Shown piece after piece: positions 1-56,911 of a DNA stretch of 56,911 nt (the first letter of the stretch is position 1; each line of letters opens with the position of its first letter). The DNA lies in IMG/VR virus record IMGVR_UViG_3300045988_169529, positions 1 to 56,911 of that record; one strand, 5' to 3'. The notes below the pieces were generated by a model that was given only the letters and a program-made list of their open reading frames with translations, made no database searches and was not told the DNA's origin. This DNA comes from a virus. The position numbers were made by a program, and so were the translations under genes.

Positions 1-55
1 AAACTGGATGCGATAAACAAGTCCATGAAAAACTTATTCAAATAACTCAAAACTA
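1..55. repeat. Left copy of a perfect 55-bp inverted terminal repeat
   Basis: nt 1-55 are the exact reverse complement of nt 56857-56911 (checked base by base). Identity ends at nt 56. Confidence 0.95.
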
Positions 56-62: not shown

Positions 63-431
63 ATGAAACAGACAGTAGAAGAAGTGGCAAGGGGATATTC
101 CAATGATTGCAGAAACAGGCAGCGTCATTGTGAACCATACTGCATTGTTGACTTTATTTCTGGTGCCGAATGGCAGTCAAAGCAATCACCTTGGATAAGT
201 GTTAAGGAGCGGTTGCCGGAAGAAGGACAAAAAGTTTTCGTTTTGACAATGTGTTGTGGTGTTTCACGCATTCTAATTGAAAGGTTTTATAAAATAAATG
301 CTTTTGATAAAGATAATAGATGGATTTTTGGAAATAGTATCGTGCTGGCATGGTTTCCTATCCCGTCTTTCGATGATATACTCGAAGAGAACAGGGATGT
401 ACTTGAACGGATTAAAGAGAAAGGAGATTAA
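63..431 (+). CDS. DUF551-like phage protein
   Basis: 122-aa ORF with a WISVKERLPEEGQKVFVL segment typical of DUF551 phage proteins. It is the first gene inward of the left repeat. Confidence 0.55.
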   Translation: MKQTVEEVARGYSNDCRNRQRHCEPYCIVDFISGAEWQSKQSPWISVKERLPEEGQKVFVLTMCCGVSRILIERFYKINAFDKDNRWIFGNSIVLAWFPIPSFDDILEENRDVLERIKEKGD

Positions 432-432
432 T

Positions 433-582
433 ATGGATAACAAAGAACTATCTGATAAAATAATTGATATTGTAAGAACTATACGAAAAATACCTAGAGA
501 ACAAATCAAGAATCCTTTCGAGATACAAGTTATTGTAGTTAAACCTAAAGATTATGAAAATAAAGAATATAGGACAACTTAG
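433..582 (+). CDS. Small hypothetical protein (49 aa)
   Basis: ATG at 433 is preceded by AAGGAG (421-426). It is a sub-ORF of the 298..582 track ORF. Confidence 0.4.
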   Translation: MDNKELSDKIIDIVRTIRKIPREQIKNPFEIQVIVVKPKDYENKEYRTT

Positions 583-769
583 AAAAATCATAGAAAACCT
601 TTCCGATGATTTTGAAATCGAGATGCGTATCAGACGCAAATTGACGGATGAAGAATTGAAAAATTGCAGATACCCTTATCCTTACGATACAGAGTATTTA
701 ACTTTGGAATTTGACGATATAGGCGTTTCTAACAAAGTATTGTGTTTGGGTGTAACTTCTAATGAATGA
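554..769 (+). CDS. Hypothetical small protein
   Basis: 71-aa ORF. Its N-terminus (NIGQLRKIIENLSDD) resembles that of the 56360..56632 product (TVGELIEKLKKMP). Confidence 0.45.
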   Translation: MKIKNIGQLRKIIENLSDDFEIEMRIRRKLTDEELKNCRYPYPYDTEYLTLEFDDIGVSNKVLCLGVTSNE

Positions 770-975
770 ACGGTATGGAAATAAATAACGGAATAATAAT
801 AGATGGGGTGTTGCATGAATCATCAGAAGGATTTTGTAATGAGTGTTCCTTATACCGGGAATGTTGTAATATTTTAGATGATACCTATTGTTCCATACTA
901 GATTTGGGAATAGGTCAGTGTTTTGTCTGTCGTGGTAAAGTAACGGATATTAAAACAGAGGAGGAAAAGAAATGA
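766..975 (+). CDS. Cys-rich small protein, possibly zinc-binding
   Basis: 69 aa with 7 Cys, including CNECSLYRECC and CFVC. ATGA start/stop overlap with the upstream ORF. Confidence 0.5.
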   Translation: MNGMEINNGIIIDGVLHESSEGFCNECSLYRECCNILDDTYCSILDLGIGQCFVCRGKVTDIKTEEEKK

Positions 976-1256
976 AACAGGTATTGTCATTTGATCAGAC
1001 GAAACATTTACAAGAACTTGGATTATACCATATCTACACCTTGCCGGATATTCTCGACAATTTACCTTGTTTCATCGGCAATCAAGTGCTGACCATGCAA
1101 AAACTTGCAGATAGCTATACATGCTTGTATGTGGAACCTTATACTAGGTCTATCGGAAATATCACAGAAGGTAAAGAAATCATTGATGCAGCATACGAAA
1201 TGTTGTGCTGGTGCATTGAAAACGGATATGTTAAAGTTGGGAAGGAGGAATTATGA
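972..1256 (+). CDS. Hypothetical protein
   Basis: 94-aa ORF. GAGGAGG lies 8 nt upstream of the ATG, and the start overlaps the upstream stop. Confidence 0.6.
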   Translation: MKQVLSFDQTKHLQELGLYHIYTLPDILDNLPCFIGNQVLTMQKLADSYTCLYVEPYTRSIGNITEGKEIIDAAYEMLCWCIENGYVKVGKEEL

Positions 1257-1531
1257 AAGCAAGAATAAAATCAACTGGAGAAATTGTAGAGATTAAGGAT
1301 TTATATGATGATGGTACTGCATTGGTGGGAAACATGTATATCAAGGTGTCAGAACTTAATTTCTTTAGTGAAAACATTGATTGGGAACAACGTAGGTACG
1401 AATTGGCAAAAGACATTATTAAAATTGTTATAGCAAACGACTATGGTGTTAATTCTGATGTAGTCGCTAAATATTCGCTTAATTGCGCTGATGCCCTAAT
1501 TAAAAGATTAAAGGAGAATAATTATGAATAG
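1253..1531 (+). CDS. Hypothetical protein
   Basis: 92-aa ORF with AAGGAGG at 1242-1248 just upstream. Tightly packed in the operon. Confidence 0.6.
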   Translation: MKARIKSTGEIVEIKDLYDDGTALVGNMYIKVSELNFFSENIDWEQRRYELAKDIIKIVIANDYGVNSDVVAKYSLNCADALIKRLKENNYE

Positions 1532-1736
1532 CGTACAGACACAAACACTTTCCATTAACGGAGATGGAGGTGGTGAAGCATATATTGACTTTTGCAACGG
1601 TCAGTTATGTATTTCAGTTGTCATAGAAGGGAAACAGGCGGATTTTCACTTTGAGCCTGTTACGTTAAAGATGTTTGCCCATGCTTATAAATTACATTGT
1701 GAAGAGTGTGATAACCAACAAAAGAAAGGAGAATAA
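1524..1736 (+). CDS. Hypothetical protein
   Basis: 70-aa ORF with AAGGAG at 1511-1516. Confidence 0.55.
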   Translation: MNSVQTQTLSINGDGGGEAYIDFCNGQLCISVVIEGKQADFHFEPVTLKMFAHAYKLHCEECDNQQKKGE

Positions 1737-1738
1737 CC

Positions 1739-2119
1739 ATGACCGAAGAACTTGTAACATTAGAAACAGCAAAGCTGCTGAAAGAGAAAGGGTTTAATTG
1801 GAAGTGTGAACACACAATAAGTTGCGATAATATTATTAGAAGATACGACATTCCGCAAAGTATGTCATGTTGTACGGAAATAGATAACGAACCAGTTGAA
1901 TTTTTGTGCCCAGTGTTGTATGTTGCCCAAAAGTGGCTACGTGAAACCAAGAACCTGCATATCGAAATATCCTATATGTATGGAAATTATTGGATATATG
2001 ATATACTAACAATTCCGAGGCATGACTTGATAGGATTGTCTGACAGGCCTATTGTCCGTTATAATACCTACGAGGAAGCACTAGAAGCTGGGATACAGGA
2101 AGCATTAAAACTTATATAA
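1739..2119 (+). CDS. Hypothetical protein
   Basis: 126-aa ORF with AAAGGAG at 1725-1731. Confidence 0.6.
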   Translation: MTEELVTLETAKLLKEKGFNWKCEHTISCDNIIRRYDIPQSMSCCTEIDNEPVEFLCPVLYVAQKWLRETKNLHIEISYMYGNYWIYDILTIPRHDLIGLSDRPIVRYNTYEEALEAGIQEALKLI

Positions 2120-2121
2120 AA

Positions 2122-2757
2122 ATGAAAAAGATATCTTTCAATGATAAATTTGGATTAACACAAGCGGTGTTGGATGGTCGTAAGACTATGACGAGAAGAA
2201 TAATCAAATGTCCTGGAACTTTTAAAGGAGAATGGGTTGCTGGATTCAATATACACAGATGTCATTCTGATAAAAAGATTGTTGGCTATCCTTGTATGTA
2301 TGATGCTGATGGAAGGGAATTTGATTCGGGAGAAATTATTTCACGCTATAAGGTTGGTGAAGTTGTTGCCATTGCGCAAAGCTATGAAACCGTTTACCAT
2401 GAACAAGGATTGGAAACACTTGATATGTTAGTTAGTGGTTGGAAGTATAGCAAAGGTTGGCGTAATAAACTCTTTGTCCGCGCTGACCTCATGATACATC
2501 AGATCCGAATTACCAATCTCAAGGTTGAACGTTTACAGGACATTAGCGATGAAGATTGCTTGAAAGAAGGGATATATGAAGATTCGGGTGATGATGAGTT
2601 TCCACCATCTATATTTTATGAATTTGAGGGAAACAAAGACGATGGATTTGATAATCCACGTGAAGCCTTTGCCGCCCTCATAGATAAAGTATCCGGCAAG
2701 GGTACATGGGAATCCAATCCTTATGTTTTCGTATATGAATTTAAACTGATTGATTAA
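2122..2757 (+). CDS. ASCH-domain-like phage protein
   Basis: The N-terminal AVLDGRKTMTRRI motif matches the GRKTxTRR signature of phage ASCH-like proteins. 211 aa. Confidence 0.5.
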   Translation: MKKISFNDKFGLTQAVLDGRKTMTRRIIKCPGTFKGEWVAGFNIHRCHSDKKIVGYPCMYDADGREFDSGEIISRYKVGEVVAIAQSYETVYHEQGLETLDMLVSGWKYSKGWRNKLFVRADLMIHQIRITNLKVERLQDISDEDCLKEGIYEDSGDDEFPPSIFYEFEGNKDDGFDNPREAFAALIDKVSGKGTWESNPYVFVYEFKLID

Positions 2758-2775
2758 CAGATAGAGAGTAAATTT

Positions 2776-3369
2776 ATGAACAATATTAATTTGAACGAAC
2801 TACGGAATCGTGCTTATAAGACCGCCTGTGAGCACGGTTTCCATGATAAAGAATTGAGTAACGAACACTGCCTTTGCCTTATCGTTGGAGAGCTTATGGA
2901 AGCTGTGGAAGCGGATAGAAAGGGAAGATTAGGAAAGAAATGTAAATCACGTTTTGAAATGGACTATAATCGCTATCCTGCATTAGTGGAAGAAGAAAAG
3001 CGATTTAAGTGTTCCTTTGAAAAGCATGTAAAAGATACACTTCCAGACGAACTAAGTAATGCGGTTATATGCCTGTTTGACTTTGCAGGACTTCGAGGGA
3101 TAAGCCTTGAATCTGCTAGTAATGATATTAACTCCGAATATATGGATGATATTGCCTACATGTACAGCCAATTGAGTTTCACGGAAGCGATATATTCCAT
3201 ATTTACCAAACCAATTGTAGATTACCAGTATCTTTCTACGATTGTAAATGAGATGATATTTTCAATCTTTGCACTAGCCAAACATCTTGGCATAGATTTG
3301 CTATGGCATATTGAGCAGAAACAAAGATATAACGAATTAAGACCTAAGTTGAACGGAAAAAGATATTGA
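2776..3369 (+). CDS. MazG-like (all-alpha) nucleotide pyrophosphohydrolase family protein
   Basis: YKTACEHGFHD....LIVGELMEAVEADRKG fits the E-x2-E-A-x-E-A-x-R metal-binding helix of the MazG/NTP-PPase family. Confidence 0.5.
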   Translation: MNNINLNELRNRAYKTACEHGFHDKELSNEHCLCLIVGELMEAVEADRKGRLGKKCKSRFEMDYNRYPALVEEEKRFKCSFEKHVKDTLPDELSNAVICLFDFAGLRGISLESASNDINSEYMDDIAYMYSQLSFTEAIYSIFTKPIVDYQYLSTIVNEMIFSIFALAKHLGIDLLWHIEQKQRYNELRPKLNGKRY

Positions 3370-3614
3370 TTATGAAAACAATTATATTTACAATCATATG
3401 TATTATCGCCCTATTATGGGTTGGAGATCTCACAATTACATTTAAGCCGTTTTCTATATCACTTCCCAGTTGGTATAAGCCTGTAGGTATCATCCTGTTT
3501 GTGTTGGCAATGGCGGTATATAACATTGGAGAATACGCTAAAGGGTATAAGCATGGTTTCGATGATGGGTTAAAGGAATGTATTGAAACGATTAAGAGAA
3601 ATGGAAAGAATTGA
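3366..3614 (+). CDS. Small membrane protein (2 predicted TM helices)
   Basis: 82 aa with hydrophobic stretches IIFTIICIIALLWVG and VGIILFVLAMAVYNI. ATGA overlap with the upstream gene. Confidence 0.5.
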   Translation: MIMKTIIFTIICIIALLWVGDLTITFKPFSISLPSWYKPVGIILFVLAMAVYNIGEYAKGYKHGFDDGLKECIETIKRNGKN

Positions 3615-3861
3615 GCACATAGCCACAATTGATTTCTGTTACTGGCGTTTGGAAATGCTCTGTCAACAACTTTCTAATACCAAGTCAAACATCGAAAGAC
3701 TAGTCGATAAGGCTTGCGGTTATAACGAAACCGAAGAGATAAGGAAGGAGTGCATAACGCTTGTAGAGCAAATTATTGAAAGTAAGAAATCAATCGGGGA
3801 GAATTTTACAAGAGATATATGTTTTTTGAATAAATTAAAAAAGGGAAATAAACTCTCATAG
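3601..3861 (+). CDS. Hypothetical protein
   Basis: The track ORF 3583..3861 starts at a TTG. The in-frame ATG at 3601 is more plausible. Last small gene before the terS promoter region. Confidence 0.45.
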   Translation: MERIEHIATIDFCYWRLEMLCQQLSNTKSNIERLVDKACGYNETEEIRKECITLVEQIIESKKSIGENFTRDICFLNKLKKGNKLS

Positions 3862-3926
3862 TTGATTCCTAAAATGTTAATATATATATCTACGCTATTT
3901 TTAAGAACAGAAATTAAATAACAGGT

Positions 3927-3957: not shown

Positions 3958-4014
3958 AATTATAATGTTTCCGTGTAAAGGGGCACGGTACGTTCTTCGG
4001 ACGAAAAGACTTTT

Positions 4015-4512
4015 ATGGGAAAAAAACTCGTAGCAAATAGAGAAAATTTCTGCCATTATTATATGGAAACGGGTAATGCTACAGATGCATATCGGAAAGC
4101 TTACCCTAATAGTATTGGATGGAAGGATGGGGTCGTTAGTAAGCGTGCATTTGAATTACTGAGAAATCCATCTGTCGCATCCCGTGTAAATGAATTGCAG
4201 GCTGATATCTTAAAAAAGTCTGATATGAAGAAGGAAGATGCATTGCGCTTCCTTACAAATGTGGTAAATGTAGACCCTATAGATCTCCAATTAAAAGGTA
4301 AAGATACGTTTATTGTCCGTTCTCTTGATAATATACCAAAACCAGTCCGATGTTGCATCCAATCGATTAAGAATACTCAATATGGAGTAGAGATACGGCT
4401 ATATAGCAAAATAGCCGCCATTACACAGATAAGCAAGATGCTTGGATGGGATGCTCCAGTAAAAAGTGATGTCAGTACCAATGTGCGCATGATAATTGGG
4501 GACGAGCAATGA
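4015..4512 (+). CDS. terS: Terminase small subunit (Terminase_2/P27-like)
   Basis: NRENFCHYYMETGNATDAYRKAYPNS is the classic N-terminal HTH signature of this TerS family. Its stop overlaps the terL start. Confidence 0.8.
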   Translation: MGKKLVANRENFCHYYMETGNATDAYRKAYPNSIGWKDGVVSKRAFELLRNPSVASRVNELQADILKKSDMKKEDALRFLTNVVNVDPIDLQLKGKDTFIVRSLDNIPKPVRCCIQSIKNTQYGVEIRLYSKIAAITQISKMLGWDAPVKSDVSTNVRMIIGDEQ

Positions 4513-6518
4513 TAGAGATGGTATTCTCGTATAAATTGTTTAATCCCCTGTTTTGGCATATCCGTGAGGCGATGCATGACAAGGATATCCGGTATATTAT
4601 AAACAGAGGTGGTTCTTCATCAGGGAAATCTGTATCTACGACACAATCCGTGTTGTTGTCTGTATTCTCTGGAGAAGGTTCGGCTCTCGTTGTGAGAAAA
4701 GTTGGAGCGAGCCTGAAGAATACGGTATATGAAGAGTTTAAGACCCAAATGAAAGCTCTTCAATTGAGTCAGTTCTTCACCCCAAAGGAAAATAATATAA
4801 CCTGTATAAATGGTTGCAAAATCGACTTTACAGGATTGGACGATCCCGAAAAGATAAAGTCTATCACAGGATATCGCTGGATAGTGATGGAGGAAGCCAC
4901 TGAGTTTGAATATGAGGATTTCACACAGATACGTTTCCGCCTACGAGGAAAGGAGGGCCTACAGATTATATGCAACTTTAATCCGGTATCAGAGGACTCG
5001 TGGATAAAAACCAAGATTCTTGATACATACGAGTGGGATGAGCATCCGAATGATTTGTACGGGAAAGTAAAATATCCGATAAAAAGGAGTTTATTACCTA
5101 AGGATTATAGCCGGATACTAGGAAAGAGATATAATAAATCTAGAATGATAGCTAATGAGCGTACGGGAAAAATGGAAAGATATCCATCGGATACGGTAGA
5201 GCTGCATTCTTCGTATAAGAACAACTTCTGGGTAGTAGGTTCTCCGGACGGGAAGTATGGATACTATGACAGACAGACGATATCTAATTACCAATGGTAC
5301 AAGGATCATGATTATAATTACTACAGGGTATACGCATTGGGAGAATGGGGAAGCATTAAGACAGGAGGAGAGTTCCTGTATGCATTTGATTCAAACAAAC
5401 ACATAAAAACGACACACTACATTAAAGGGATGCCGGTTCATATATCAATTGATAACAATGTGCTCCCTTATATTTCAATATCATTTTTCCAGGTGGATGG
5501 AAGTAGTATAAGGCAGTTTAACGAGATATGCGCCAGTGATCCGTTCAACACGGTAACACAGGCTTCAAAAATGGCGGTAGATTACCTGAAATCAATAAGG
5601 TATAATGATATGCTGTATCTGTACGGAGATGCTTCGACAAAAAACGGGAACACTATAGACGAAGAGAAGAGATCGTTTCTTGATAAGTTCGTGGAAGGGC
5701 TGGAAAGCGATTACCATGTTGAGGAGAGGATACCGGCTTCTAACCCGTCCGTACCGATGTCAGGTGAATTTGTAAACTACATGCTCGATGGAGGCTCGGG
5801 TATGTCATTTTCGGTAGATGATGGATGTAAAAACTCGATAGTCGATTATAACAATGCCAAGAAGGACGTTAATGGAGGGGTGCTGAAAAAAAGAGTAAAG
5901 GATAAGATTACAGGACAGTCTTATGAGAGATACGGTCACTTGGTGGATTGTCTGCGATATATTACTGTATGGGTATTCAAGGATGAATATACTCGTTTCT
6001 CTTTGAAAAGGAAACGAAGTAAAATTAAACAGGAAAATAAAGATATGAGATATTTTGATATGTCTAAAAATATTCAGGGGACAAGACTTGTATATGTTCT
6101 TCCCGAATATGCCGGAAAGTTCATTATCGTTTCGTGCTATGTAAATGAGGGAATATATATAGATAATGTGACATATACAGGATCATTTGATGAGACTGTT
6201 CTCCTGTCATTTTTAGAGGGCATATCTCCTGTGGAAGTGTTGTTTGAAAGTGAGAAAAATTATTTCCCCATAGCACGGGGCTTAAGGGATAGATATGATG
6301 TCAGAATTATGCATAAAAATATGGGAACAGATGCTAGGGTATCTGCTTTTCTGGATTTTATCAAAAATAATGTGATGTTTCGTGCAGACTATGATGAGAT
6401 CCCGCAATACAATGAGTTTATGGATGGGATATTGGATTATAATGGTTCAGATGATTGCGCTGCAATTTATTCTGTCGCCTCCTTGGCTTATTACGTGTCG
6501 AAAAAATATAATATATAA
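4509..6518 (+). CDS. terL: Terminase large subunit, PBSX/Terminase_3-like, with an extra C-terminal region of about 170 aa
   Basis: Walker A NRGGSSSGKS, Walker B/coupling WIVMEEATEF, NFNP motif and nuclease-like ISIDNN..YGDAS..GHLVDCLRY. At 669 aa it is longer than I expect for this family. Confidence 0.85.
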   Translation: MIEMVFSYKLFNPLFWHIREAMHDKDIRYIINRGGSSSGKSVSTTQSVLLSVFSGEGSALVVRKVGASLKNTVYEEFKTQMKALQLSQFFTPKENNITCINGCKIDFTGLDDPEKIKSITGYRWIVMEEATEFEYEDFTQIRFRLRGKEGLQIICNFNPVSEDSWIKTKILDTYEWDEHPNDLYGKVKYPIKRSLLPKDYSRILGKRYNKSRMIANERTGKMERYPSDTVELHSSYKNNFWVVGSPDGKYGYYDRQTISNYQWYKDHDYNYYRVYALGEWGSIKTGGEFLYAFDSNKHIKTTHYIKGMPVHISIDNNVLPYISISFFQVDGSSIRQFNEICASDPFNTVTQASKMAVDYLKSIRYNDMLYLYGDASTKNGNTIDEEKRSFLDKFVEGLESDYHVEERIPASNPSVPMSGEFVNYMLDGGSGMSFSVDDGCKNSIVDYNNAKKDVNGGVLKKRVKDKITGQSYERYGHLVDCLRYITVWVFKDEYTRFSLKRKRSKIKQENKDMRYFDMSKNIQGTRLVYVLPEYAGKFIIVSCYVNEGIYIDNVTYTGSFDETVLLSFLEGISPVEVLFESEKNYFPIARGLRDRYDVRIMHKNMGTDARVSAFLDFIKNNVMFRADYDEIPQYNEFMDGILDYNGSDDCAAIYSVASLAYYVSKKYNI

Positions 6519-6537
6519 TTGGTATATTTTTAAGATA

Positions 6538-6699: not shown

Positions 6700-6729
6700 A
6701 AAAAAATAACCGACAATTAATGCCGGTTA
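6700..6729 (-). terminator. Rho-independent terminator of the RHH gene
   Basis: Stem TAACCG/CGGTTA (6707-6712 / 6724-6729) is followed on the minus strand by a T7 run (A7 at 6700-6706). Confidence 0.5.
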
Positions 6730-6944
6730 CCGTGATAGTATCTTATAGCCTCATTGACATATAATGATACCGATTGCTCCTTATCCAATATAGCTGCCAC
6801 GTCCTCCTCTATTATAACAAGTATTCTTTTCACACCATTAACCTTCGGTCTTCGGGGCACACCATTGCTGTCCAATATCCTATATATCGTTTGCTCAGGC
6901 TTTGAAGATAATAGCAAAGATATCAATTCTAAAACGAAATACAA
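6717..6944 (-). CDS. Ribbon-helix-helix (CopG/Arc-like) DNA-binding protein
   Basis: The C-terminal KRILVIIEEDVAAILDKEQSVSLYVNEAIRYY fits a beta-strand/helix/helix RHH pattern. The start codon is uncertain. Confidence 0.45.
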   Translation of the reverse strand: MYFVLELISLLLSSKPEQTIYRILDSNGVPRRPKVNGVKRILVIIEEDVAAILDKEQSVSLYVNEAIRYYHGNRH

Positions 6945-7112: not shown

Positions 7113-7313
7113 ATGGAATGGGATCGGAAAACAACTAAATCAACATCTAATTCTCCATTCGAAAGTGGTGATGGGCAAAATGCTGTTATATTTATAGGGA
7201 CAAATGATGTTCAAAAAATAGGGTTTCAAGCAACCTATTCGGGGCAATTTATTAAGATCAGGCTATATTGGGTCGGTAGTTGGGGTAAATGGCAAACTTT
7301 TTCTTTGACATAA
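7113..7313 (+). CDS. Short fibre-tip-like fragment, in opposite orientation to the cassette array
   Basis: The 66-aa ORF ends QFIKIRLYWVGSWGKWQTF, homologous to the end of tip E (VFYIRQKLGDNWGKWAKY). It has its own terminator downstream. Confidence 0.4.
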   Translation: MEWDRKTTKSTSNSPFESGDGQNAVIFIGTNDVQKIGFQATYSGQFIKIRLYWVGSWGKWQTFSLT

Positions 7314-7417
7314 AAACGATAGCATTTAATTTTATTATCACTATCTTTGTAAGGAAATGCAGATTCTCTCATAAATGACTTTACTTATAGGGTTTATAGA
7401 TTTTTTAAACCATTTTT

Positions 7418-7450
7418 AAGCAGTTGCCCGTGATGGATAGCTGCTTTTTT
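7418..7450 (+). terminator. Hairpin plus T6 terminator (plus strand)
   Basis: AAGCAG..(loop)..CTGCTT followed by TTTTTT (7445-7450). Confidence 0.5.
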
Positions 7451-7469
7451 AGACTACGCTGTTCTGCCC

Positions 7470-7488
7470 CATCCCAGAAGTACAAAAT
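7470..7488 (-). repeat. Junction repeat A (terminal stub)
   Basis: tcccagaagtacaaaat (7472-7488) is identical to 8456-8472. The coding strand reads FVLLGWGRTA-stop. Confidence 0.85.
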
Positions 7489-7490
7489 TC

Positions 7491-7811
7491 CTATACCTGT
7501 GTCAAATCTATTTTATTCCATCCAAAATTGGTATGGTTAAGTTGTCTCACATACAATTTAAACCCATCTGAAACAGAATAAAAAGCGAACTGGACTTTAT
7601 ATGAATGCCCAATGACAAATAGCGGTCCCCAACTTTGGGTAAATGGAGCATTGGAAATGTCACCAAATATTTCATACCAACCATTGTCTACTGCTAGATT
7701 TGCATCACTAACTCTCCCTCTATACATGAATGGAAACAGCTTCAAATTAGTGAACAGTTCTCCCAGCTCTCGATTTTTGGTTAGAATCATGTCAAAGATA
7801 CGGTTTGCCAA
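7491..7811 (-). CDS. Fibre-tip cassette B
   Basis: 106-aa ORF with NRELGELF near its N-terminus. The C-terminal part (WGPLFVIG..KLYVRQLNHTNFGWNKI) is homologous to tip E. Confidence 0.6.
   Translation of the reverse strand: MANRIFDMILTKNRELGELFTNLKLFPFMYRGRVSDANLAVDNGWYEIFGDISNAPFTQSWGPLFVIGHSYKVQFAFYSVSDGFKLYVRQLNHTNFGWNKIDLTQV
7756..7772 (-). repeat. Junction repeat B
   Basis: ctcccagctctcg (7760-7772) is identical to 8131-8143. It encodes R-E-L-G-E. Confidence 0.85.
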
Positions 7812-7816
7812 TTACT

Positions 7817-8110
7817 CTAAACAACATCAACAGAAATTCGTAAATAACTGAATTTGGAGGCTGGTGAATTGTTGATAATTGTAACAGTATTGCCTTTTTT
7901 CAACAAACATATTCTGCCTTCGATGTTACTATTCAAGTTAATGATTCCTTCAAACAATGCCGAAATCGTATCATTCCATTGTGCTGGAATTATAGATATA
8001 CTAGGGTTATGATTCAAGGGGGAAAATAAGATTAATATAGATGGATCATATATTTGTAAATCTGTACTTTCCCCTGTTTTTAATTCAAATTTTCCCTTAT
8101 ATATATTCAT
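7817..8110 (-). CDS. Fibre-tip cassette C
   Basis: 97-aa ORF from an ATG. The in-frame upstream sequence KRELGGLLPSGT carries the junction motif but has no start codon. Confidence 0.5.
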   Translation of the reverse strand: MNIYKGKFELKTGESTDLQIYDPSILILFSPLNHNPSISIIPAQWNDTISALFEGIINLNSNIEGRICLLKKGNTVTIINNSPASKFSYLRISVDVV

Positions 8111-8127
8111 AGTTCCACTTGGCAGAA

Positions 8128-8143
8128 GTCCTCCCAGCTCTCG
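8128..8143 (-). repeat. Junction repeat C
   Basis: It shares ctcccagctctcg with repeat B and lies between the stop of cassette D and the first ATG of cassette C. Confidence 0.85.
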
Positions 8144-8161
8144 TTTCGAATAGATTTTATG

Positions 8162-8449
8162 TCAATTATTACTGTGAATTATTATCTTAGGATCTTCCCA
8201 AGTTGAAACGTCTGGATAATTCCTTTTTCTAAATATTAATGTTCCGTCTATTGCTATTCCGAAGATGAAAACAACATCTTCTAATTGTTTTATAACCAAT
8301 CCTTGAACGACATTACCATAGAATCCTTCTCCAGCAAAAGCATTGAAATCGGAAACGAAAGGTTGAATTGTTTTTATAGGCATTTCATTTACAAAATCCG
8401 TAAATTCACTCCATGAAGAAAACGATTTTGTTCCCTTCGGATTTCCCAA
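8162..8449 (-). CDS. Fibre-tip cassette D
   Basis: The track ORF starts at a TTG that lies inside the junction. In-frame upstream reads stop-LKLLYFVLLGELLG-NPKGTKSF with no ATG. IFGIAIDGTLIFRKRN..STWEDPK is distantly tip-like. Confidence 0.5.
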   Translation of the reverse strand: MGNPKGTKSFSSWSEFTDFVNEMPIKTIQPFVSDFNAFAGEGFYGNVVQGLVIKQLEDVVFIFGIAIDGTLIFRKRNYPDVSTWEDPKIIIHSNN

Positions 8450-8472: not shown

Positions 8473-8494
8473 ATAAGAGCTTAAGTTATAATTT

Positions 8495-9034
8495 CTATAC
8501 AAAAACACCTTCGTATTTTGCCCATTTTCCCCAATTATCTCCTAATTTTTGTCTTATATAAAAAACATTATCATTCATCGGAATGTATATTTGAGTTATA
8601 AACAAACGCCCAAAAACCAATAATCCTCCCCATGCCCTATGACCGTTAGGGGTATCTTCGTTAGTTAATCTGTCATCAATAGTATAATATCCAACCTCAG
8701 TTGCTGATGCAAATGATGTTGGATATCCTTTATCTCCTAACATTTGATTTATTCCCAAAAGTTCTCCCAGGACTTTCGCGGCAGCCGAAGAAGATGTCAA
8801 AGTTGGGTTCTTGGAACCGTCCAAAGTACGGAGCCAAGAGAAGGTGTCGGACTGGGGCAACTGATCCTCAAACTCATCTGTTCCGGCTGCCGCAGCGGCA
8901 GCAAATGTTGATATTTCTGATGCAGCGGAAACAATCCGTGCGGAAACTAATTCTGTCATCTCATCGACGGTCACCTGTCGTTCGTTGCCGTTTTTATCCA
9001 CAGCTTTAAAGCCAACTATATTATTCAAGTCCAT
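8495..9034 (-). CDS. Small fibre protein: constant N-terminal part plus tip E (apparently the expressed copy)
   Basis: 179 aa with an ATG start. An Ala-rich linker runs to ..AAKVLGELLG (junction E, internal), followed by an 80-aa tip ending NWGKWAKYEGVFV. Confidence 0.7.
   Translation of the reverse strand: MDLNNIVGFKAVDKNGNERQVTVDEMTELVSARIVSAASEISTFAAAAAAGTDEFEDQLPQSDTFSWLRTLDGSKNPTLTSSSAAAKVLGELLGINQMLGDKGYPTSFASATEVGYYTIDDRLTNEDTPNGHRAWGGLLVFGRLFITQIYIPMNDNVFYIRQKLGDNWGKWAKYEGVFV
8752..8770 (-). repeat. Junction repeat E (inside the expressed ORF)
   Basis: ttcccaaaagttctcccag encodes LGELLG, and the same 19-mer heads cassette D. Confidence 0.9.
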
Positions 9035-9050
9035 AATGCAAATTTTAAAA

Positions 9051-9470
9051 TTAAAACAAATACTTCACCCATGCAAAATAATTACTGTTCTCAATATAAT
9101 TCGGATCATCCTCGTTGGAATATGCCTCCCTCTCAAACGATACCGTCTTATACGCCCTGCCGGCATCCTTCAACCGTACCGCCCTGACCAGCCACTCCAC
9201 ACCATACCAGAGATAGAATGCCAGCCCGGCCAGTACCAGCCACCAGGCGGAAAGGTCAAAACACAACAGCAAGATCCAGATAACTGTACCGATGGCAACT
9301 GCCATCTCAACCCATTGACGGGCGTGGGTACACTCATGGTTTCTCACTTTCTGAGTGATTTTCTCTTCCGGTCGCTTGCTTAAAACAAACGGACCGATTG
9401 TTATCGTATGGCAAGAACTGAACGCAAGCAGCACCTTTGCCAGAAGGTTGTTACAATATACCTTTTTCAT
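9051..9470 (-). CDS. Membrane protein with an HExxH zincin-like motif
   Basis: RNHECTHARQW (HExxH) is followed by two hydrophobic helices (AVAIGTVIWILLLCF, WWLVLAGLAFYLWY) and FEREAY. Confidence 0.45.
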   Translation of the reverse strand: MKKVYCNNLLAKVLLAFSSCHTITIGPFVLSKRPEEKITQKVRNHECTHARQWVEMAVAIGTVIWILLLCFDLSAWWLVLAGLAFYLWYGVEWLVRAVRLKDAGRAYKTVSFEREAYSNEDDPNYIENSNYFAWVKYLF

Positions 9471-9744
9471 GTTGTTCCTCCTTTTTATCTAAATAATCAT
9501 TCAAAGAATCGGCCAGCAAGCCGGACAACATAGGGGTAGAACGTCTTATGATATCCACCTCCTCTTCGTCAAGTTCCACACCATCTACAGTCGACTTGAA
9601 GATTTTCTCCGCAAGGAGATGCGCCTTCAAGCCCGCTACGTTCTTATATATCCAGTCACCGAAGGCCTCAGTGATGTTACTGGCTATAAGCTTTTCTTTT
9701 TTAATCCCATCATAAATAGGGAATTGTGCAAAATTTATTCTCAT
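9451..9744 (-). CDS. Hypothetical protein (fibre-module associated)
   Basis: 97-aa ORF immediately downstream of the large fibre gene. It overlaps the next ORF by 20 nt. Confidence 0.55.
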   Translation of the reverse strand: MRINFAQFPIYDGIKKEKLIASNITEAFGDWIYKNVAGLKAHLLAEKIFKSTVDGVELDEEEVDIIRRSTPMLSGLLADSLNDYLDKKEEQHEKGIL

Positions 9745-9758
9745 ACTTTATATTTAAA

Positions 9759-12700
9759 TTATCCGCAATAAAACATAACCCAATAATTACCCATACACTT
9801 AATGAAGCCGGATGCAAAATCCAAATCAATATAAGACACCTCCTGTCCTCCGGGAGCAGGCAGGATCCGTCCTCCTGTCAATCTTACTCCGCCGCTCATA
9901 CGTTTGAAGTATATAGTATGTCCCGGAACATCCGGAGGAAGTGTCACTTCTATATTGCCCGTATTAATAAACATCACATTATCATCATTGTTATTCAGGG
10001 GAGTGCTGACGGATATGTTCCTCCAGTTGCCAACTATGCCACGAAGAGAAACATAGCTGTCATTGTTCGGATGAAGGAAAATGTTACCTCCCTCCACGAA
10101 TAGAGGAATGCTTGGAGTCTTGATGTGCATCCCGATCATGACATTTGGACTCTGTATGTCAATTCCAGCATCATACTTAATCCCTTCAATGGTGACAAAC
10201 TGCGTGTTTCCCCCGATTCTTACGTTTGCAAATGTCCTTTCGTTATAAAACTCAATTTGTCCGGCAGACAGATTGAAACCGACGTATTTATTTGTTTCAT
10301 TTTCATAAAGGATCTTTGAGGACAACATCCCCGAAGCGATGGAGAACGGACCGATACGTCCTCCTTCTATGTCCATATTAATGCCATGAATATAACCGGA
10401 TTCGGAATTCAGTATCAGGTTGGGCACACCATTGGTTGACTTCTGTGATTTTATATCTCCAAAAGGTATGCCGTTGGCATCCATTCCTTTATATGTGAAC
10501 ATGAATCCGCATATATTGGCTCCTGTAGCAAACAGGGTGTCAGTGGCGATATTAACAAACTTCTGCATGGCTTCCCAATTGGAATCCCCGTTGACAGATG
10601 TAGGGGCGGCGGTTACACTGGCACCATAGTTCCGCACAAGGAAATTATAATACACGCCATTGAACTTGTAGATGATCTTGTCACGATAGCTGGCGTTCCA
10701 TACATAGCTAGTACCAGATTGGAATACTCCCATATCTCTTGGAGAAGCCCCTGTCGCTCCAGTTGCTCCTATGGCGCCATCATTTGCAACACCCACCCCT
10801 TTTTCAGCGACAAAATTATTATTCCATGCGTTCGCGTCCGATGCGGATTGATAAGCCCGGACGGCAAACTGGGTGTATCCGGCTGTCGCTGGAACGGATA
10901 TCTGATTGCTTAGGGTAGCACCTACATGAGCCAGCCAGCTTCCGTTATACTTACGGGCTGCCAGATAAAGCGTGCTGCACGTGCTTACATTGCCTGCCAC
11001 ATTCTGTTTGCAAGTGACAAGGAATCCAGACGGGGATGGCGTGCCCGTACTGGTGAAGTTGATCACGCTGACAGGACTGTCCAGCCAGTAGGATGCCGAC
11101 GGTCCGACGGGAGCAACCATCTCCTGCCAGTCCGCATGTACCGTCCGGTTCGCGGATCTGCCGGCGAGGATGTATCCGCCGTCTCTTTTCCTGCGGAGTC
11201 TGCCGTTTCTGAACTTGGCGATTTTAATCGGAGGGTTGGAGGTTTCAACCTTGCTTAAGTAAGATCCTCCGGCAAACGATACTGTACTGTTCTTGGCATA
11301 CGGAGTATTGGCGGATTCCCAATGACCGGCTGCTGTGATGCTCTCACCATCCTTTCCGTCACTGCCGTCCACAACCATCGGGACAGTCTCGACATCAACC
11401 GCCTGACCGTTCACGTAGAACACGAACTTCAAGCTACTGGTAAAATTACCGGAAGCCACCCCGACACCATCACCGATGGGAACCTCGGCCGCACCGTCAC
11501 GACTGTACTTCAACTCCCCGTCCGTTGTGGCCGTAGTGACCGCACCGACTGTCTTCATACGCCGGCAGGATACCGAAGCTACACTGTAACCGCCGTTCTT
11601 GTTCTTGCTGACCATCGTGGCCGAAGTGACAAGGCTATAAATTACCGCATCGGAACCGTCCGCCCCGCCACGGACACCGGTTATCTTGAAAGTCAGTTCA
11701 CGGGTATAGAGCTGCCCGTTCTTCATTGCAGCCAGTGTGATGGTGACCGTATTCTGTTCCGGAACCGACTTTCCGGCAGCGACGGATATCGCCACCGCTC
11801 CGGTGGCCTTGCTTGTGCTTGCCGTGAAACCGGCAGGCGTGCTGACTGTTAAAGTCTCAAGGGTGAGTTTCTCGGTACCGTACCACATGGATACATGGGT
11901 AGTCCATGACTGTGCGGAAGTAGTAACACCGGTACTGGTAAGAGCGACGCTCACCATCTCATTGTCAAGGTCGGCCATGATATTCGACTCCCCGTCCTTA
12001 CTCCAACGGTGCACAGGGGCCGGAGTGCTCCATTCACTCCATACTCCATCACGCTTCACACGTTTGCACGCCCATTCCACCTGATGGTCTGCATCCACGC
12101 CAAGAAAATCATCTGTCCAGCCTTCCGGTATATAATCATCCTGCTGCTTCGAATCCGGCTTGTCAGGGGTAAGGCCGATGATGTTGGTACGGGTGTAGAT
12201 CCACTCGTAACCTTTGCCGTCCTTACCGTCAGTCCCGTCTTTGACCATGACCATCCACAAACCATTCCGGTATATGTAAGTACAATGGTCAGCCGTATTT
12301 CGGTAGCTGTCACCCTCCTTGGGATTGGACGGATGGGATGCGAACTCACCCAAGAAGGTGATACTCTCACCTTTAAGTTCACGACCGTCCAGCAGCATCT
12401 CCCAGTCTTCATGCACGGTCCAGTCGGCTGATTTCCCGGCAAGGATATAACCGCCATCCTTTTTCTTTCGATAATTGCCGTTCCTGAACCTTGCAATTTT
12501 AATCGGAGGATTGGAGGTTTCCACCTTGGATATAAAGACACAATTGGCAAGAGTGACCATTGTATTGGCTTTGTACGGGGTCTTGGAGGATTCCCAATGA
12601 CCGCCACCTACTACGGACAATCCCGGATCACCTTTTTGCCCTTCCGCCACTTGTTTCAGCCATGCCGGATTATCATCTGACGGTTCTGTTGTCGTTCCGT

Positions 12701-13955
12701 TGTCATCAACACACAACCACAAAGCCCCGTTATGTGACACCCGGTCATAGTAGGCGTACTTCCCTGCAACCCATTCACCCTTGTCCAAGGGTACACGAAC
12801 CTTGTTCCCCGTTATCTCATCTATCTGGAAGATAAGCCCAGTCAATAAGACCTGTTGCAACACGGCTGAATATTTCTCGCAATCAATTCCGTTAACGGTC
12901 ATGCCCTTTTTTTTGCCGAACCACGCAGGCATCTGCGCCGGCTCCGGGTCCCAAGTGTTGGCATTGTCAAAGAATGTAATACAGTTGTTTCCGTTGACTG
13001 AATCAATAAGTATATAAGTCTGACGTTCCGGGTCCGTAAAGTTACCTGTTTGTGCCAATACCATCTGCTCGGCAGGTTTCCAGTCAGAATGCCCCGGACG
13101 GGGAATGACAGTAAACTTCTTGGCAGTATAATCTGCGGCAGTCACCCGGAATTTCATCTCTTCAAAGCCATTCAGCTTGCCTTCGCTATTCTTAGTCACA
13201 AAATAGGTGGTAAGGATATCATCAACAAACTGGCTCAATCCGTCCGCGTCCGTCAGATCGGGAGTGATGGTGTAGGTTCCATCGCCGTTATCCACATATG
13301 ACAATACGGTACAACCACCACCGGGGGAGTTTACCATACGTCCTTTGAAATAGGTTGTACGGTTATAAGCTATTTCAGGAACAAACAAACGCTTACGGAA
13401 AACGCCGCTTCCCATTTCCATGTCACCCTTTTCGTCTATGTATCCACCTGATACACCAGTAACGAAATCACCGAACTTGGCATATTTCTTAATCAAGACT
13501 CCGCCCAGTAAGGATAACAAGTACTTAGTGGAATCAGCCACGTCCTTCCGCAAGAATATCTCTTTCAGCTTCTCCGCACTGTTCTCTATCTCAGTCATTA
13601 CACGCAATGCGCTCATCACATCCTCATCGGTGTAGGTGACATCCTTGTCACCCTGCTTTACGATGCGGTTTATCAGATTCCCGGCTATCTTAAGACCTTT
13701 GAGGTAATTAATGACCCCTTGCGCATCATCATCGTTCAATGCGGATAAGAACCAGTCAAGCACAGGCGTATTCTTATCCAGCGTGTATGCAGATGTGGCA
13801 TGGTCGGCGTTAGTGACATCGCCTCCGCCACCACTGCCGCCACCGCCGTTCTGCTTTATCTCTTCAACCTCAATGGAGATCTTGCTAAAGTTGCTGTTGA
13901 TGCGGTCTGCCGTTTCGCTCCAAGTACCTGTTTTGTTTATTGTATTAAGCTCCAT
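9759..13955 (-). CDS. Large tail fibre protein (about 1398 aa from MELNTINK)
   Basis: The N-terminus MELNTINKTGTWSETADRINSNFSK is shared with the 17747..18085 product. It has a Gly run, short collagen-like GxxGxx stretches, an internally duplicated ~70-aa module (GHWES..SKVETSNPPIKIA.FRNG..DGGYILAG) and a beta-rich C-terminus. Confidence 0.8.
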   Translation of the reverse strand: MELNTINKTGTWSETADRINSNFSKISIEVEEIKQNGGGGSGGGGDVTNADHATSAYTLDKNTPVLDWFLSALNDDDAQGVINYLKGLKIAGNLINRIVKQGDKDVTYTDEDVMSALRVMTEIENSAEKLKEIFLRKDVADSTKYLLSLLGGVLIKKYAKFGDFVTGVSGGYIDEKGDMEMGSGVFRKRLFVPEIAYNRTTYFKGRMVNSPGGGCTVLSYVDNGDGTYTITPDLTDADGLSQFVDDILTTYFVTKNSEGKLNGFEEMKFRVTAADYTAKKFTVIPRPGHSDWKPAEQMVLAQTGNFTDPERQTYILIDSVNGNNCITFFDNANTWDPEPAQMPAWFGKKKGMTVNGIDCEKYSAVLQQVLLTGLIFQIDEITGNKVRVPLDKGEWVAGKYAYYDRVSHNGALWLCVDDNGTTTEPSDDNPAWLKQVAEGQKGDPGLSVVGGGHWESSKTPYKANTMVTLANCVFISKVETSNPPIKIARFRNGNYRKKKDGGYILAGKSADWTVHEDWEMLLDGRELKGESITFLGEFASHPSNPKEGDSYRNTADHCTYIYRNGLWMVMVKDGTDGKDGKGYEWIYTRTNIIGLTPDKPDSKQQDDYIPEGWTDDFLGVDADHQVEWACKRVKRDGVWSEWSTPAPVHRWSKDGESNIMADLDNEMVSVALTSTGVTTSAQSWTTHVSMWYGTEKLTLETLTVSTPAGFTASTSKATGAVAISVAAGKSVPEQNTVTITLAAMKNGQLYTRELTFKITGVRGGADGSDAVIYSLVTSATMVSKNKNGGYSVASVSCRRMKTVGAVTTATTDGELKYSRDGAAEVPIGDGVGVASGNFTSSLKFVFYVNGQAVDVETVPMVVDGSDGKDGESITAAGHWESANTPYAKNSTVSFAGGSYLSKVETSNPPIKIAKFRNGRLRRKRDGGYILAGRSANRTVHADWQEMVAPVGPSASYWLDSPVSVINFTSTGTPSPSGFLVTCKQNVAGNVSTCSTLYLAARKYNGSWLAHVGATLSNQISVPATAGYTQFAVRAYQSASDANAWNNNFVAEKGVGVANDGAIGATGATGASPRDMGVFQSGTSYVWNASYRDKIIYKFNGVYYNFLVRNYGASVTAAPTSVNGDSNWEAMQKFVNIATDTLFATGANICGFMFTYKGMDANGIPFGDIKSQKSTNGVPNLILNSESGYIHGINMDIEGGRIGPFSIASGMLSSKILYENETNKYVGFNLSAGQIEFYNERTFANVRIGGNTQFVTIEGIKYDAGIDIQSPNVMIGMHIKTPSIPLFVEGGNIFLHPNNDSYVSLRGIVGNWRNISVSTPLNNNDDNVMFINTGNIEVTLPPDVPGHTIYFKRMSGGVRLTGGRILPAPGGQEVSYIDLDFASGFIKCMGNYWVMFYCG

Positions 13956-14080
13956 ATATCCTGTTCCACTTTTACCATTCCGCATCCGGATGCACTTCAA
14001 CGGACAGATAGTTCATTATTCTGATGATTAATTTTCGTATCATAAATATATGTTTTGAGTGTTACTGATAACTTTCCGAG

Positions 14081-17254: not shown

Positions 17255-17264
17255 AATAAATCTC

Positions 17265-17744
17265 CTATATTTCTAGATTAGTAACTGTTTCTTCTTCCTC
17301 TTCCGGTGGCAAAGGAGGTACAAAATCACTCAGCACATCTTCATATTCATTATCCGACAATGGGAACGCCTGAATCGAATTATATGCGGCATAATCGGGA
17401 TAAGATGTTATTTCCACCGTGCTTTCATCGGTTTTCCCGGTAGTCAGTACGATTCCTGTATCTTCAACGGAAACAAGGTTGCAGATGCCATCCTGAAAGT
17501 CGGAATCGGATATGAAGTATTCACGTTTTACCTTCAGCATACCGGGAGAAAAACAGGGGTTGTCAAAAGCGACAAGCAGGTTGCCGTCTTCCATGCGGCT
17601 GCAACCGACATACTCATGTCCGTCAAAGGAGGCTATGAACTTTCCCTTGAACGGATTGAAGTAAGTGAACCGGAAAGGAGTATTCACATCCCCGTTCAAG
17701 TTCTTCTCTATGATCTTAAAATCGGACTGATAATTAATTCTCAT
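17265..17744 (-). CDS. Hypothetical fibre-module protein
   Basis: 159-aa ORF tightly packed between fibre genes, with an acidic C-terminus (PPLPPEEEEE). Confidence 0.6.
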   Translation of the reverse strand: MRINYQSDFKIIEKNLNGDVNTPFRFTYFNPFKGKFIASFDGHEYVGCSRMEDGNLLVAFDNPCFSPGMLKVKREYFISDSDFQDGICNLVSVEDTGIVLTTGKTDESTVEITSYPDYAAYNSIQAFPLSDNEYEDVLSDFVPPLPPEEEEETVTNLEI

Positions 17745-17746
17745 AA

Positions 17747-45377: not shown

Positions 45378-45388
45378 TGTGATACTAA

Positions 45389-56856: not shown

Positions 56857-56911
56857 TAGTTTTGAGTTATTTGAATAAGTTTTTCATGGACTTGTTTATC
56901 GCATCCAGTTT
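56857..56911. repeat. Right copy of the perfect 55-bp inverted terminal repeat
   Basis: Exact reverse complement of nt 1-55. It contains TAGTTTTG (56857-56864) and an outward ATG at 56886. Confidence 0.95.

What the first reader, a model, noticed from the sequence alone, without database searches (positions are those of the whole stretch)
4015..6518. Orphan terS-terL pair on the opposite strand, with no portal or head genes attached
4015..4512 and 4509..6518 are a textbook TerS (Terminase_2-like HTH) and TerL (Walker A GGSSSGKS, WIVMEEA, nuclease motifs). They have their own promoter-like sequence. They terminate the short plus-strand arm and run head-on into the fibre genes, and no portal, protease or capsid gene follows them. 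The complete head and packaging module lies 30 kb away on the other strand and has its own, unrelated TerL (38567..40333) beside the portal. Two intact large terminases in one tailed-phage-sized element is unusual. Possible explanations are a recombinant that retained two packaging systems (for example different pac/cos specificities), a hitchhiking or satellite-like cassette carried in the phage arm, or a chimeric assembly. The last option links to the odd inverted ends.
Basis: partly seen in the sequence, partly recalled or inferred. Interest (0 to 1): 0.7.

Follow-up and report, generated by a model that had tools for sequence, protein, structure and literature searches.

The report
Two phages' terminases on one contig
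The window does encode two unrelated, intact DNA-packaging enzymes, but they belong to two different gut Phocaeicola phage lineages joined in one incomplete contig, so this is a mosaic or mis-join and not a phage with two packaging machines.

Summary
4015-4512 is a Terminase_2 small subunit. 4509-6518 is a Terminase_3 large terminase (TerL1). 38567-40333 (TerL2) has no Pfam or PHROG hit, but its model folds as a full large terminase.

The two enzymes come from two different phage lineages.
- TerL2 sits in a head, tail and replication arm collinear with Porphyromonas gingivalis phages, which have only this terminase ("A-type").
- terS-terL1 is the terminase of a separate ~60-kb Phocaeicola lineage ("B-type"). 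Its relatives at 48-99% identity carry terS-TerL-portal-S78 protease-HK97 capsid.
- 27 IMG/VR contigs hold TerL1 together with that portal, and 25 of them have the portal on the opposite strand. Facing the fibre genes is therefore normal for B-type.

The window has no B-type portal, protease or capsid. It is 100% identical to B-type relatives up to 19116 and 100% identical to an A-type contig from 19043, inside tail gene 18097-21528. I found no other contig with this join or with both terminases.

The inverted ends match for exactly 55 nt, an assembler k-mer length, and lie inside an early gene in other contigs. The contig is therefore incomplete.

I lean towards an assembly-graph join (~55%) over a real, private recombinant (~33%). 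In either case the terS-terL1 pair is stranded. Interest is low to moderate.

The parts
1..55 (+). Left copy of the 55-nt sequence X. Its exact reverse complement forms the right end of the window.
   Evidence: The arms printed are identical for 55 bases and then diverge. The same 55-mer lies inside L016, L017, L022 and L024, at the 3' end of a 309-aa integrase-like early gene.
63..3861 (+). Small early (nin-like) genes of the B-type arm (DUF551 and others). The arm is cut at X. In complete B-type contigs this arm is 31-37 kb long.
4015..4512 (+). TerS1, small terminase (Terminase_2).
   Evidence: The block conserved at 96-100% across more than 50 contigs starts at 3899.
4509..6518 (+). TerL1, large terminase (Terminase_3/PBSX type, 669 aa). 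The extra C-terminal region (about residues 505-669, beyond the reach of phage TerLs) is a family trait.
   Evidence: The exact protein is on record in 186 blocks of contigs.
6717..6944 (-). 75-aa ORF, a short version of a 95-aa HTH_7-like gene of relatives. A terminator-like hairpin lies at 6731-6705.
6904..6926 (+). 23-nt sequence GAAGATAATAGCAAAGATATCAA, sitting exactly at a homology breakpoint. Candidate recombination site.
7113..8449 (.). Short fibre-tip cassettes. In relatives they occur in the other orientation beside a 431-aa tyrosine recombinase that is absent from this window.
8495..18085 (-). Fibre and distal-tail genes as found in B-type contigs (179, 139, 1413, 1057, 159 and 112 aa).
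   Evidence: L276 and L042 match up to about 14.1 kb. L268-L275 match 13525-19116.
18097..21528 (-). 1143-aa tail protein in which the contig changes lineage.
19043..19116 (.). 74-nt stretch identical in both parental types. This is the switch point from B-type to A-type.
21583..26738 (-). A-type 654-aa tail protein and 1064-aa tape measure protein (TMP_3).
36492..37991 (-). Candidate portal of the A-type head module.
   Evidence: 49% identical to the annotated portal of PP754931. No profile or PDB hit.
38567..40333 (-). TerL2, a divergent large terminase matched to the head genes that are present.
40336..40974 (-). 212-aa protein upstream of TerL2. Candidate small subunit by position only.
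   Evidence: 52% identical to the syntenic protein of PP754931, which is annotated there as an 'acr candidate'. No Pfam hit.
43368..46351 (-). A-type major capsid protein (669 aa) and S49 prohead protease.
49648..53661 (-). A-type primase (1337 aa).
56857..56911 (-). Right copy of X. In L016 the sequence continues past it into int309, int296 and an HTH repressor.

Best explanation
The window is an incomplete contig that joins pieces of two different Phocaeicola phages.

The two lineages:
- Bases 1-19116 are the distal part of a 'B-type' genome. This lineage is about 60 kb and has an HK97-like head. Its terS-terL1 lie at the end of a long early arm, and in most genomes they face the integrase/fibre end of an inverted structural block.
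- Bases 19043-56911 are an 'A-type' genome. It is a relative of Porphyromonas gingivalis phages, carrying primase, S49 protease, a 669-aa capsid protein, TerL2, portal, tape measure and tail genes.
- Each TerL is the packaging motor of its own head type. TerL2 matches the portal and capsid genes present here. terS-terL1 are cut off from their portal, S78 protease and HK97 capsid, which are absent from the contig.

Shown: the identity of both enzymes, the two lineages, the switch point, and the incompleteness of the contig.

Inferred: I judge the join itself most likely to be an assembly-graph path. Two co-resident phages share a 74-nt identical stretch in a tail gene and share the 55-mer X in their early regions. 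The contig is the path that leaves X along one phage and returns to X along the other.
For: terS-terL1 belong to a complete B-type phage:
- Relatives at 75% (L185), 48%, 90% (L079, L084) and 99% (L053, L072) have terS-TerL followed by a portal, a protease and a capsid gene. Pfam hits for the three (PF04860, PF04586, PF05065) are on record or tested for L185 and L053; L186-L188 show the portal and capsid families only; for L079, L084 and L072 the assignment rests on matching ORF order and sizes.
- 27 IMG/VR contigs hold both TerL1 and that portal. In 25 they are on opposite strands, separated by a 24-33 kb structural block.

The minus arm is A-type:
- It is syntenic with PP754931, which has only the TerL2-type terminase.
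- The exact TerL2 protein is on record in 3438 blocks of contigs, including contigs longer than 1 Mb.

The join:
- The window has no B-type head genes.
- The B-type portal loci share nothing with window bases 7-57 kb.
- The switch is at 19043-19116, with 100% identity to each parental type on its own side.
- Near-identical copies of each part continue elsewhere in their own lineage. L281/L018 has 2 mismatches over 17 kb and carries the A-type C-terminus, 143-aa gene and fibres. L042's contig carries the B-type portal.
- The hybrid 1143-aa protein is not on record, and the best full-length IMG/VR relative is 96% identical.
- No fetched locus combines TerL1 with A-type markers.

The ends:
- They match for exactly 55 nt, and X is internal in other contigs.

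Size argument (inference):
- A closed molecule holding everything seen here needs two inverted copies of the int309-X region. It would be at least about 62 kb, against about 50-52 kb for A-type genomes (my estimate from the distances).
Against: - A 74-nt shared stretch is shorter than usual reads. A read-threading assembler should resolve it correctly, so passing straight through suggests read support for the join.
- These phages are heavily mosaic. Exact stretches of 122-194 nt spanning the switch exist in other natural haplotypes.
- The switch lies where a functional tail-module swap would be expected.
- No reads or coverage data were available.
- The co-occurrence checks were limited to the 80 best loci per scan.
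Confidence: 0.55

Rival explanations
1. The join is real. A recent, private recombination between a B-type genome and an A-type (pro)phage at the conserved part of the tail gene produced a cointegrate or hybrid. terS-terL1 were carried along as a stranded, not yet decayed relic without its portal.
For: - The contig runs unbranched through a repeat shorter than a read.
- Mosaicism at gene and domain boundaries is rampant in these phages.
- TerL1 here is identical to the functional allele found in complete B-type genomes, as expected for a very recent event.
Against: - It is seen in no other contig.
- The B part has the circular-form junction (TerL1 next to the fibres) and lacks the integrase. 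An inversion between two integrated prophages therefore does not fit.
- A closed hybrid would exceed A-type genome size by 20% or more (inference).
- Cointegrates should be rare in a population and should not dominate an assembly.
Confidence: 0.33
2. This is a working phage that keeps two packaging systems. For example, TerL2 fills its own capsids, while terS-terL1 with its pac site lets the genome be packaged into B-type capsids during co-infection.
For: - Both enzymes have intact catalytic motifs.
- A-type and B-type phages share hosts, early-region modules and fibre modules.
Against: - There is no lineage with both terminases, so no sign of selection for keeping them together.
- The configuration is private to this contig.
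- The genome would be oversized.
- The contig is incomplete.
Confidence: 0.05
3. terS-terL1 and the plus-strand arm are a satellite-like element (PICI or cf-PICI type) riding in the phage.
For: - It is a small arm of short genes ending in terminase genes.
- Integrase-like genes occur further upstream in relatives.
Against: - The same arm in relatives is 31-37 kb long and belongs to genomes with a full head, tail and lysis gene set.
- The integrase-like early genes also occur in A-type phages.
- No att-flanked 10-15 kb unit was seen.
Confidence: 0.02
4. The inverted ends are true terminal repeats of a complete linear genome that naturally contains both terminases.
For: A 60-nt inverted repeat was reported at the ends.
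Against: - Identity stops at exactly 55 nt.
- The 55-mer is internal in four other contigs, at the end of an early gene. In L016 the identical sequence continues for 3.8 kb beyond the window end.
- L276 breaks at the same base.
Confidence: 0.02

Closest known systems
PBSX/SPP1-type terminase pair (Pfam Terminase_2 small subunit + Terminase_3 large subunit) of HK97-like siphoviruses
   Same: TerS1 and TerL1 match these profiles. In relatives they are followed by a Phage_portal protein, an S78 protease and an HK97-fold capsid protein.
   Different: The family is about 670 aa long, with a conserved extra C-terminal region. In most genomes of the closest allele group the structural block is inverted relative to the terminase genes. 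In this window the head genes are missing altogether.
Porphyromonas gingivalis phages (for example PP754931, phage019b_ATCC49417; described in PMC10367356) and Flavobacterium psychrophilum 6H-like phages
   Same: TerL2 is 63% identical to their annotated terminase LSU. The order primase-protease-capsid-TerL-portal-adaptor-tape measure is shared.
   Different: The host is different (Phocaeicola). The fibre end and lysis gene position differ. Those phages carry a single terminase and no Terminase_3 gene.
Mosaic recombinants between co-resident temperate phages, and inter-genome chimeric contigs in de Bruijn graph assemblies
   Same: The switch falls at a short stretch identical in both parents. 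Each flank is 100% identical to haplotypes seen elsewhere. The contig ends at a shared k-mer.
   Different: Which of the two applies cannot be settled without reads.
Capsid-forming PICIs and other satellites that encode their own terminase
   Same: Terminase genes that are not next to the head genes of the surrounding phage.
   Different: The element owning terS-terL1 is a full-size phage with its own head and tail. The satellite reading was tested and not met.

Membership tests
Large terminase (TerL), for 4509-6518 | ASCE ATPase with Walker A and a Walker B/catalytic glutamate | tested here: met
   GGSSSGKS (G34-S41) and E128/E129 are invariant in 25 family members. Pfam Terminase_3 E 2.5e-38. 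The family profile hits the Sf6 gp2 ATPase at 8e-7.
Large terminase (TerL), for 4509-6518 | C-terminal RNase H-like nuclease domain with conserved acidic residues | tested here: inconclusive
   D315, D374 and D480 are invariant, and phrog_2 aligns over residues 9-663. No nuclease-domain Pfam or PDB hit was obtained and no structure was predicted.
Large terminase (TerL), for 4509-6518 | Encoded with a small subunit and next to a portal gene | tested here: not met
   TerS is adjacent, but the window has no portal of its type. The feature is met in relatives at 48-99% identity.
Large terminase (TerL), for 38567-40333 | Walker A, Walker B and nuclease acidic residues | tested here: met
   K44 and E163 are invariant, and D384 and D442 are conserved in at least 90% of 68 diverse members. 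This protein reads VEE where the family consensus reads GDE. The profile hits the P74-26 TerL ATPase at 1.2e-5.
Large terminase (TerL), for 38567-40333 | Two-domain TerL fold | tested here: met
   The model has pLDDT 90.2 and pTM 0.86. The top 34 Foldseek PDB hits are phage packaging ATPases (large terminases and the phi28 motor), and SPP1 nuclease-domain chains follow at ranks 38 and 42; best E 5e-12.
Large terminase (TerL), for 38567-40333 | Curated family profile (Pfam or PHROGs) | tested here: not met
   No hit in Pfam-A or PHROGs v4. The family is simply not covered by these libraries.
Small terminase, Terminase_2 | Profile match above the curated cut-off | tested here: met
   PF03592 scores 69.5 bits against a cut-off of 26.1. 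phrog_51 E 5.5e-23.
Phage satellite (PICI / cf-PICI-like) | Small att-flanked island without a full set of virion genes, dependent on a helper phage | tested here: not met
   Contigs carrying TerL1 are about 55-63 kb and carry a portal, protease, capsid, tail, fibres and lysis genes.
Linear genome with true inverted terminal repeats | A repeat that marks the molecule's ends and is not of assembler k length | tested here: not met
   The repeat is exactly 55 nt, and it lies internally in L016, L017, L022 and L024.
Salyersviridae (Bacteroides phage BV01) | 22-25 bp att core GTCTAGTTTAGTTTTTGTGTTG (PMC8354205) | tested here: not met
   Absent from the window with up to 3 mismatches, and absent as an exact match from the 184 loci held at that point. 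Protein-level relatedness to BV01 was not tested because its genome is not in the collections.

The most novel reading that the evidence does not exclude
The join is real and the hybrid is propagated. It would be a temperate Phocaeicola phage that carries two complete, unrelated terminase systems. The stranded terS-terL1 pair and its pac site would let the genome be packaged into capsids of co-infecting B-type phages, a form of cross-packaging or piracy between full-size phages.
Probability: 0.05. Interest if true: 0.65.

Novelty: new member of a known kind. Interest (0 to 1): 0.25.

Why it matters
If the join were real and maintained, a phage with two unrelated packaging motors would bear on how terminase-portal specificity constrains module exchange. 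It would also bear on whether phages can borrow each other's capsids.

As it stands, the value is practical.
- It shows that a 'complete genome with inverted terminal repeats' can be a path between two visits to one k-mer.
- It shows that a widespread gut phage terminase family (TerL2 type, 544 representatives) is invisible to Pfam and PHROGs.
- It shows that a common Phocaeicola phage lineage keeps its terminase genes on the opposite strand from its portal. That arrangement makes them look orphaned to a reader working from sequence alone.

Tried and rejected
- BV01 identity: the att core is absent from the window and the loci, and megablast of the window against the phage collection found nothing.
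- Single-sequence structure prediction of TerL2 gave pLDDT 34 and was useless. It was redone with an alignment.
- Nested-prophage idea (A-type integrated into B-type just after TerL1): dropped. B-type contigs have their own portal at the far end of the same arm, and no locus shows an A-type repressor next to the B-type portal.
- Idea that the inverted structural block is flanked by long inverted copies of the 95-aa HTH_7 gene: not supported. Only a 23-nt repeat (98 nt in one contig) was found.
- Junction-specific 86-mer scans of IMG/VR and the metagenome collection: 12 hits, but these are other haplotypes only 80-94% alike, so they are not diagnostic.
- The scan of species-representative genomes for TerL1 found nothing.
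- Exact look-up of the hybrid tail protein found nothing on record.
- Overlap of the TerL1 and TerL2 contig lists in IMG/VR was nil.
- A PDB sequence search for the candidate portal found nothing.
Full report
**1. Observation**

The plus strand carries a run of small ORFs from 63 to 3861, then 4015-4512 and 4509-6518.
- The first is a Terminase_2 small subunit (PF03592, E 5.9e-19; phrog_51).
- The second is a Terminase_3 large subunit (PF04466, E 2.5e-38 over residues 28-207; phrog_2 over residues 9-663).
- Homologues are all about 643-689 aa long, so the long C-terminus is a family trait.
- In 25 members the Walker A residues, E128/E129 and D315/D374/D480 are invariant, and the profile hits Sf6 gp2.

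The protein at 38567-40333 has no Pfam or PHROG hit. The evidence that it is a terminase is as follows.
- It is 63% identical to 'terminase LSU' of Porphyromonas gingivalis phages.
- It has 544 relatives among 50%-identity cluster representatives.
- Across 68 diverse relatives it shows GRGxGKT, hhGDEAK, TTDMP and conserved nuclease aspartates.
- Its profile hits the P74-26 TerL ATPase.
- Its alignment-based model (pLDDT 90.2) matches solved large terminases over both domains, best E 5e-12.

There are therefore two unrelated, intact TerLs. The sigma-70-like 'promoter' upstream of terS is no more than chance.

**2. The minus arm is one known kind of phage ('A-type')**

From about 18 kb to 56 kb the window is gene-for-gene syntenic with Porphyromonas phage PP754931. 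The shared order is primase, prohead protease, major capsid protein, a 212-aa protein, TerL2, a 110-aa protein, portal, adaptor, tape measure and tail proteins.
- That phage has no counterpart of terS-terL1.
- The exact TerL2 protein is on record in 3438 blocks of contigs, including chromosomal contigs up to 2.8 Mb. This is a very common Phocaeicola vulgatus/dorei prophage.
- In independent contigs this prophage starts with an HTH repressor and a co-directional early region containing integrase-like genes. In L277 and L280 it ends with fibres followed by a convergent integrase.

**3. terS-terL1 belong to another complete phage ('B-type')**

Relatives of TerL1 are followed directly by a portal, a protease and a capsid gene. 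This holds at 75% (L185), 48% (L186-L188), 90% (L079, L084 and 26 more loci) and 99% identity (L053, L072). Pfam hits for all three genes (PF04860, PF04586, PF05065) are on record or tested for L185 and L053. L186-L188 show the portal and capsid families only, and the remaining loci were assigned by portal homology and matching ORF sizes.

Scanning IMG/VR with that portal showed how the two genes are arranged.
- 27 contigs carry both TerL1 (at least 91% identical) and the portal.
- In 25 of them the two genes are on opposite strands, with a 24-33 kb structural block between TerL1's 3' end and the portal's start.
- The early arm leading to terS-TerL1 is 31-37 kb long.

Among the 57 loci with TerL1 at 96% identity or more:
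- 34 have a convergent tyrosine recombinase;
- 14 have another arrangement with no colinear portal and no int431-type integrase hit (convergent fibre or tail genes in those inspected);
- 3 are colinear;
- 6 are too short to classify.

The cognate head genes then lie at the far end of the opposite arm.

**4. What is odd about this window**

The window has no B-type portal, protease, capsid or integrase. The B-type portal loci (plus or minus 10 kb) share nothing with window bases 7-57 kb.

Sliding identity locates the change of lineage.
- The window is 100% identical to B-type-context contigs (L268, L272) up to base 19116.
- It is 100% identical to an A-type contig (L281, the same record as L018) from base 19043.
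- The shared stretch is 74 nt, inside the 1143-aa tail gene.

The left 14,132 bases are reproduced colinearly, with 63 SNPs, in an independent contig (L276). This includes the integrase-less junction at 6.5-7.5 kb.

Close copies of each part continue in their own lineage elsewhere.
- The A-type contig has 2 mismatches over 17 kb and goes on to the A-type C-terminus, a 143-aa gene and its own fibres.
- L042's contig has fibres 96-99% identical to the window's and carries the B-type portal.

The join itself was not found elsewhere.
- The hybrid tail protein is not on record among 153 billion gene positions.
- Its best full-length IMG/VR relative is 96% identical.
- No fetched locus combines TerL1 with A-type tail markers.

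**5. The ends**

The inverted repeat at the window ends is exact for 55 nt and then stops.
- The same 55-mer (X) lies inside L016, L017, L022 and L024, at the 3' end of a 309-aa integrase-like early gene.
- L016 is 100% identical to the window's last 1262 bases. It then continues for 3.8 kb through early genes to the repressor.
- L276 starts at the same base as the window.

X is therefore a branching node shared by the early regions of both arms, and not a genome terminus. The contig is the path between two visits to X and is incomplete on both sides.

**6. Interpretation**

The core conclusion is that the two terminases belong to two lineages, and that terS-terL1 are stranded here without their head genes. 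They are not a second packaging system or a satellite. I hold this at about 0.9.

Whether the join exists in a real molecule cannot be settled without reads.

For an assembly path:
- The join is private to this contig.
- Both flanks are identical to unjoined haplotypes seen elsewhere.
- The A-type prophage is ubiquitous, so co-residence with a B-type phage is likely.
- Both ends sit on a shared k-mer.
- The B part has the circular-form junction and lacks its integrase, so recombination between two integrated prophages does not fit.
- A closed molecule would need two inverted int309-X copies and would be at least about 62 kb, against about 50-52 kb for A-type genomes (inference).
- Oddity scans enrich for artefacts.

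For a real join:
- 74 nt is shorter than usual reads, so an assembler should not cross it wrongly.
- These phages exchange modules constantly.
- Exact stretches of 122-194 nt over the switch exist in other natural haplotypes.

I put the assembly path at about 55% and a real private recombinant or cointegrate at about 33%. The remaining readings together take about 10%.

**7. Comparison with known systems, and novelty**

- TerS1/TerL1 are ordinary PBSX/SPP1-type terminase subunits.
- TerL2 is a divergent but structurally ordinary TerL, already annotated as such in P. gingivalis phages (PMC10367356).
- BV01's att core is absent (PMC8354205).

Nothing here lies outside known kinds. The by-products may deserve their own look. 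They are the inverted structural block with a 23-nt inverted repeat, the shufflon-like fibre tips, and a terminase family missing from the profile libraries.

Noticed in passing
window 6904-6926; L042/L241 and nine other contig pairs (TerL1 loci paired with portal loci): In the B-type lineage a 24-33 kb structural block (portal to integrase) is inverted relative to terS-TerL1 in 25 of 27 contigs. It is colinear in 2 of those contigs and in 28 loci of a 90%-identity allele group. The 23-nt sequence GAAGATAATAGCAAAGATATCAA sits at the homology breakpoint 6903|6904. An inverted copy lies 239-261 nt upstream of the portal in 6 of 10 contig pairs, and one pair has a 98-nt inverted repeat. This may be a recombinase-mediated inversion of a whole virion module.
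   Followed up: partly
window 7113-8461; L003, L034, L036, L039: Short fibre-tip ORFs (66, 106, 97 and 95 aa), several sharing a W-x-K-W/I-type motif near the C-terminus. Stretches of this cassette region (7755-8137, 8127-8461 and 8447-8770) lie in the opposite orientation in L039, L036 and L034, beside or near a 431-aa tyrosine recombinase with an arm-binding domain. This looks like a shufflon or host-range switch. The recombinase gene is missing from the window and from L276, and the breakpoint at 7131 falls right at its stop codon in relatives.
   Followed up: partly
window 38567-40333: The TerL2 family has 544 representatives at 50% clustering and occurs in Porphyromonas, Flavobacterium, Cellulophaga, Microcystis and Bacteroides phage records and in Phocaeicola genomes. 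It has no Pfam-A or PHROGs v4 model. In Flavobacterium 6H-like phages it is still annotated as hypothetical.
   Followed up: partly
window 1-55 and 56857-56911: The inverted terminal repeat is exact for 55 nt only, which is a de Bruijn k-mer length. Tools that treat inverted repeats as evidence of completeness would wrongly call this contig complete.
   Followed up: yes
window 11124-11253 / 12399-12528 and 11299-11328 / 12574-12603: Direct repeats spaced 1275 nt apart inside the 1413-aa fibre gene, which is also the most G+C-rich part of the window (about 0.5 against about 0.4). This is probably an internal domain duplication.
   Followed up: no
loci L016-L022, upstream of the window's right end: The early region of these phages carries up to three integrase-domain genes (296, 309 and 368 aa) in the same orientation as the replication genes. 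They are highly mosaic between contigs. BV01 is likewise reported to encode three integrase-domain genes (PMC8354205).
   Followed up: no
window 27-29 kb; L277, L280, L283: The slot between the tail genes and the tape measure gene holds variable cargo in relatives (SocA_Panacea, DUF6722). It looks like a moron or defence hot spot.
   Followed up: no
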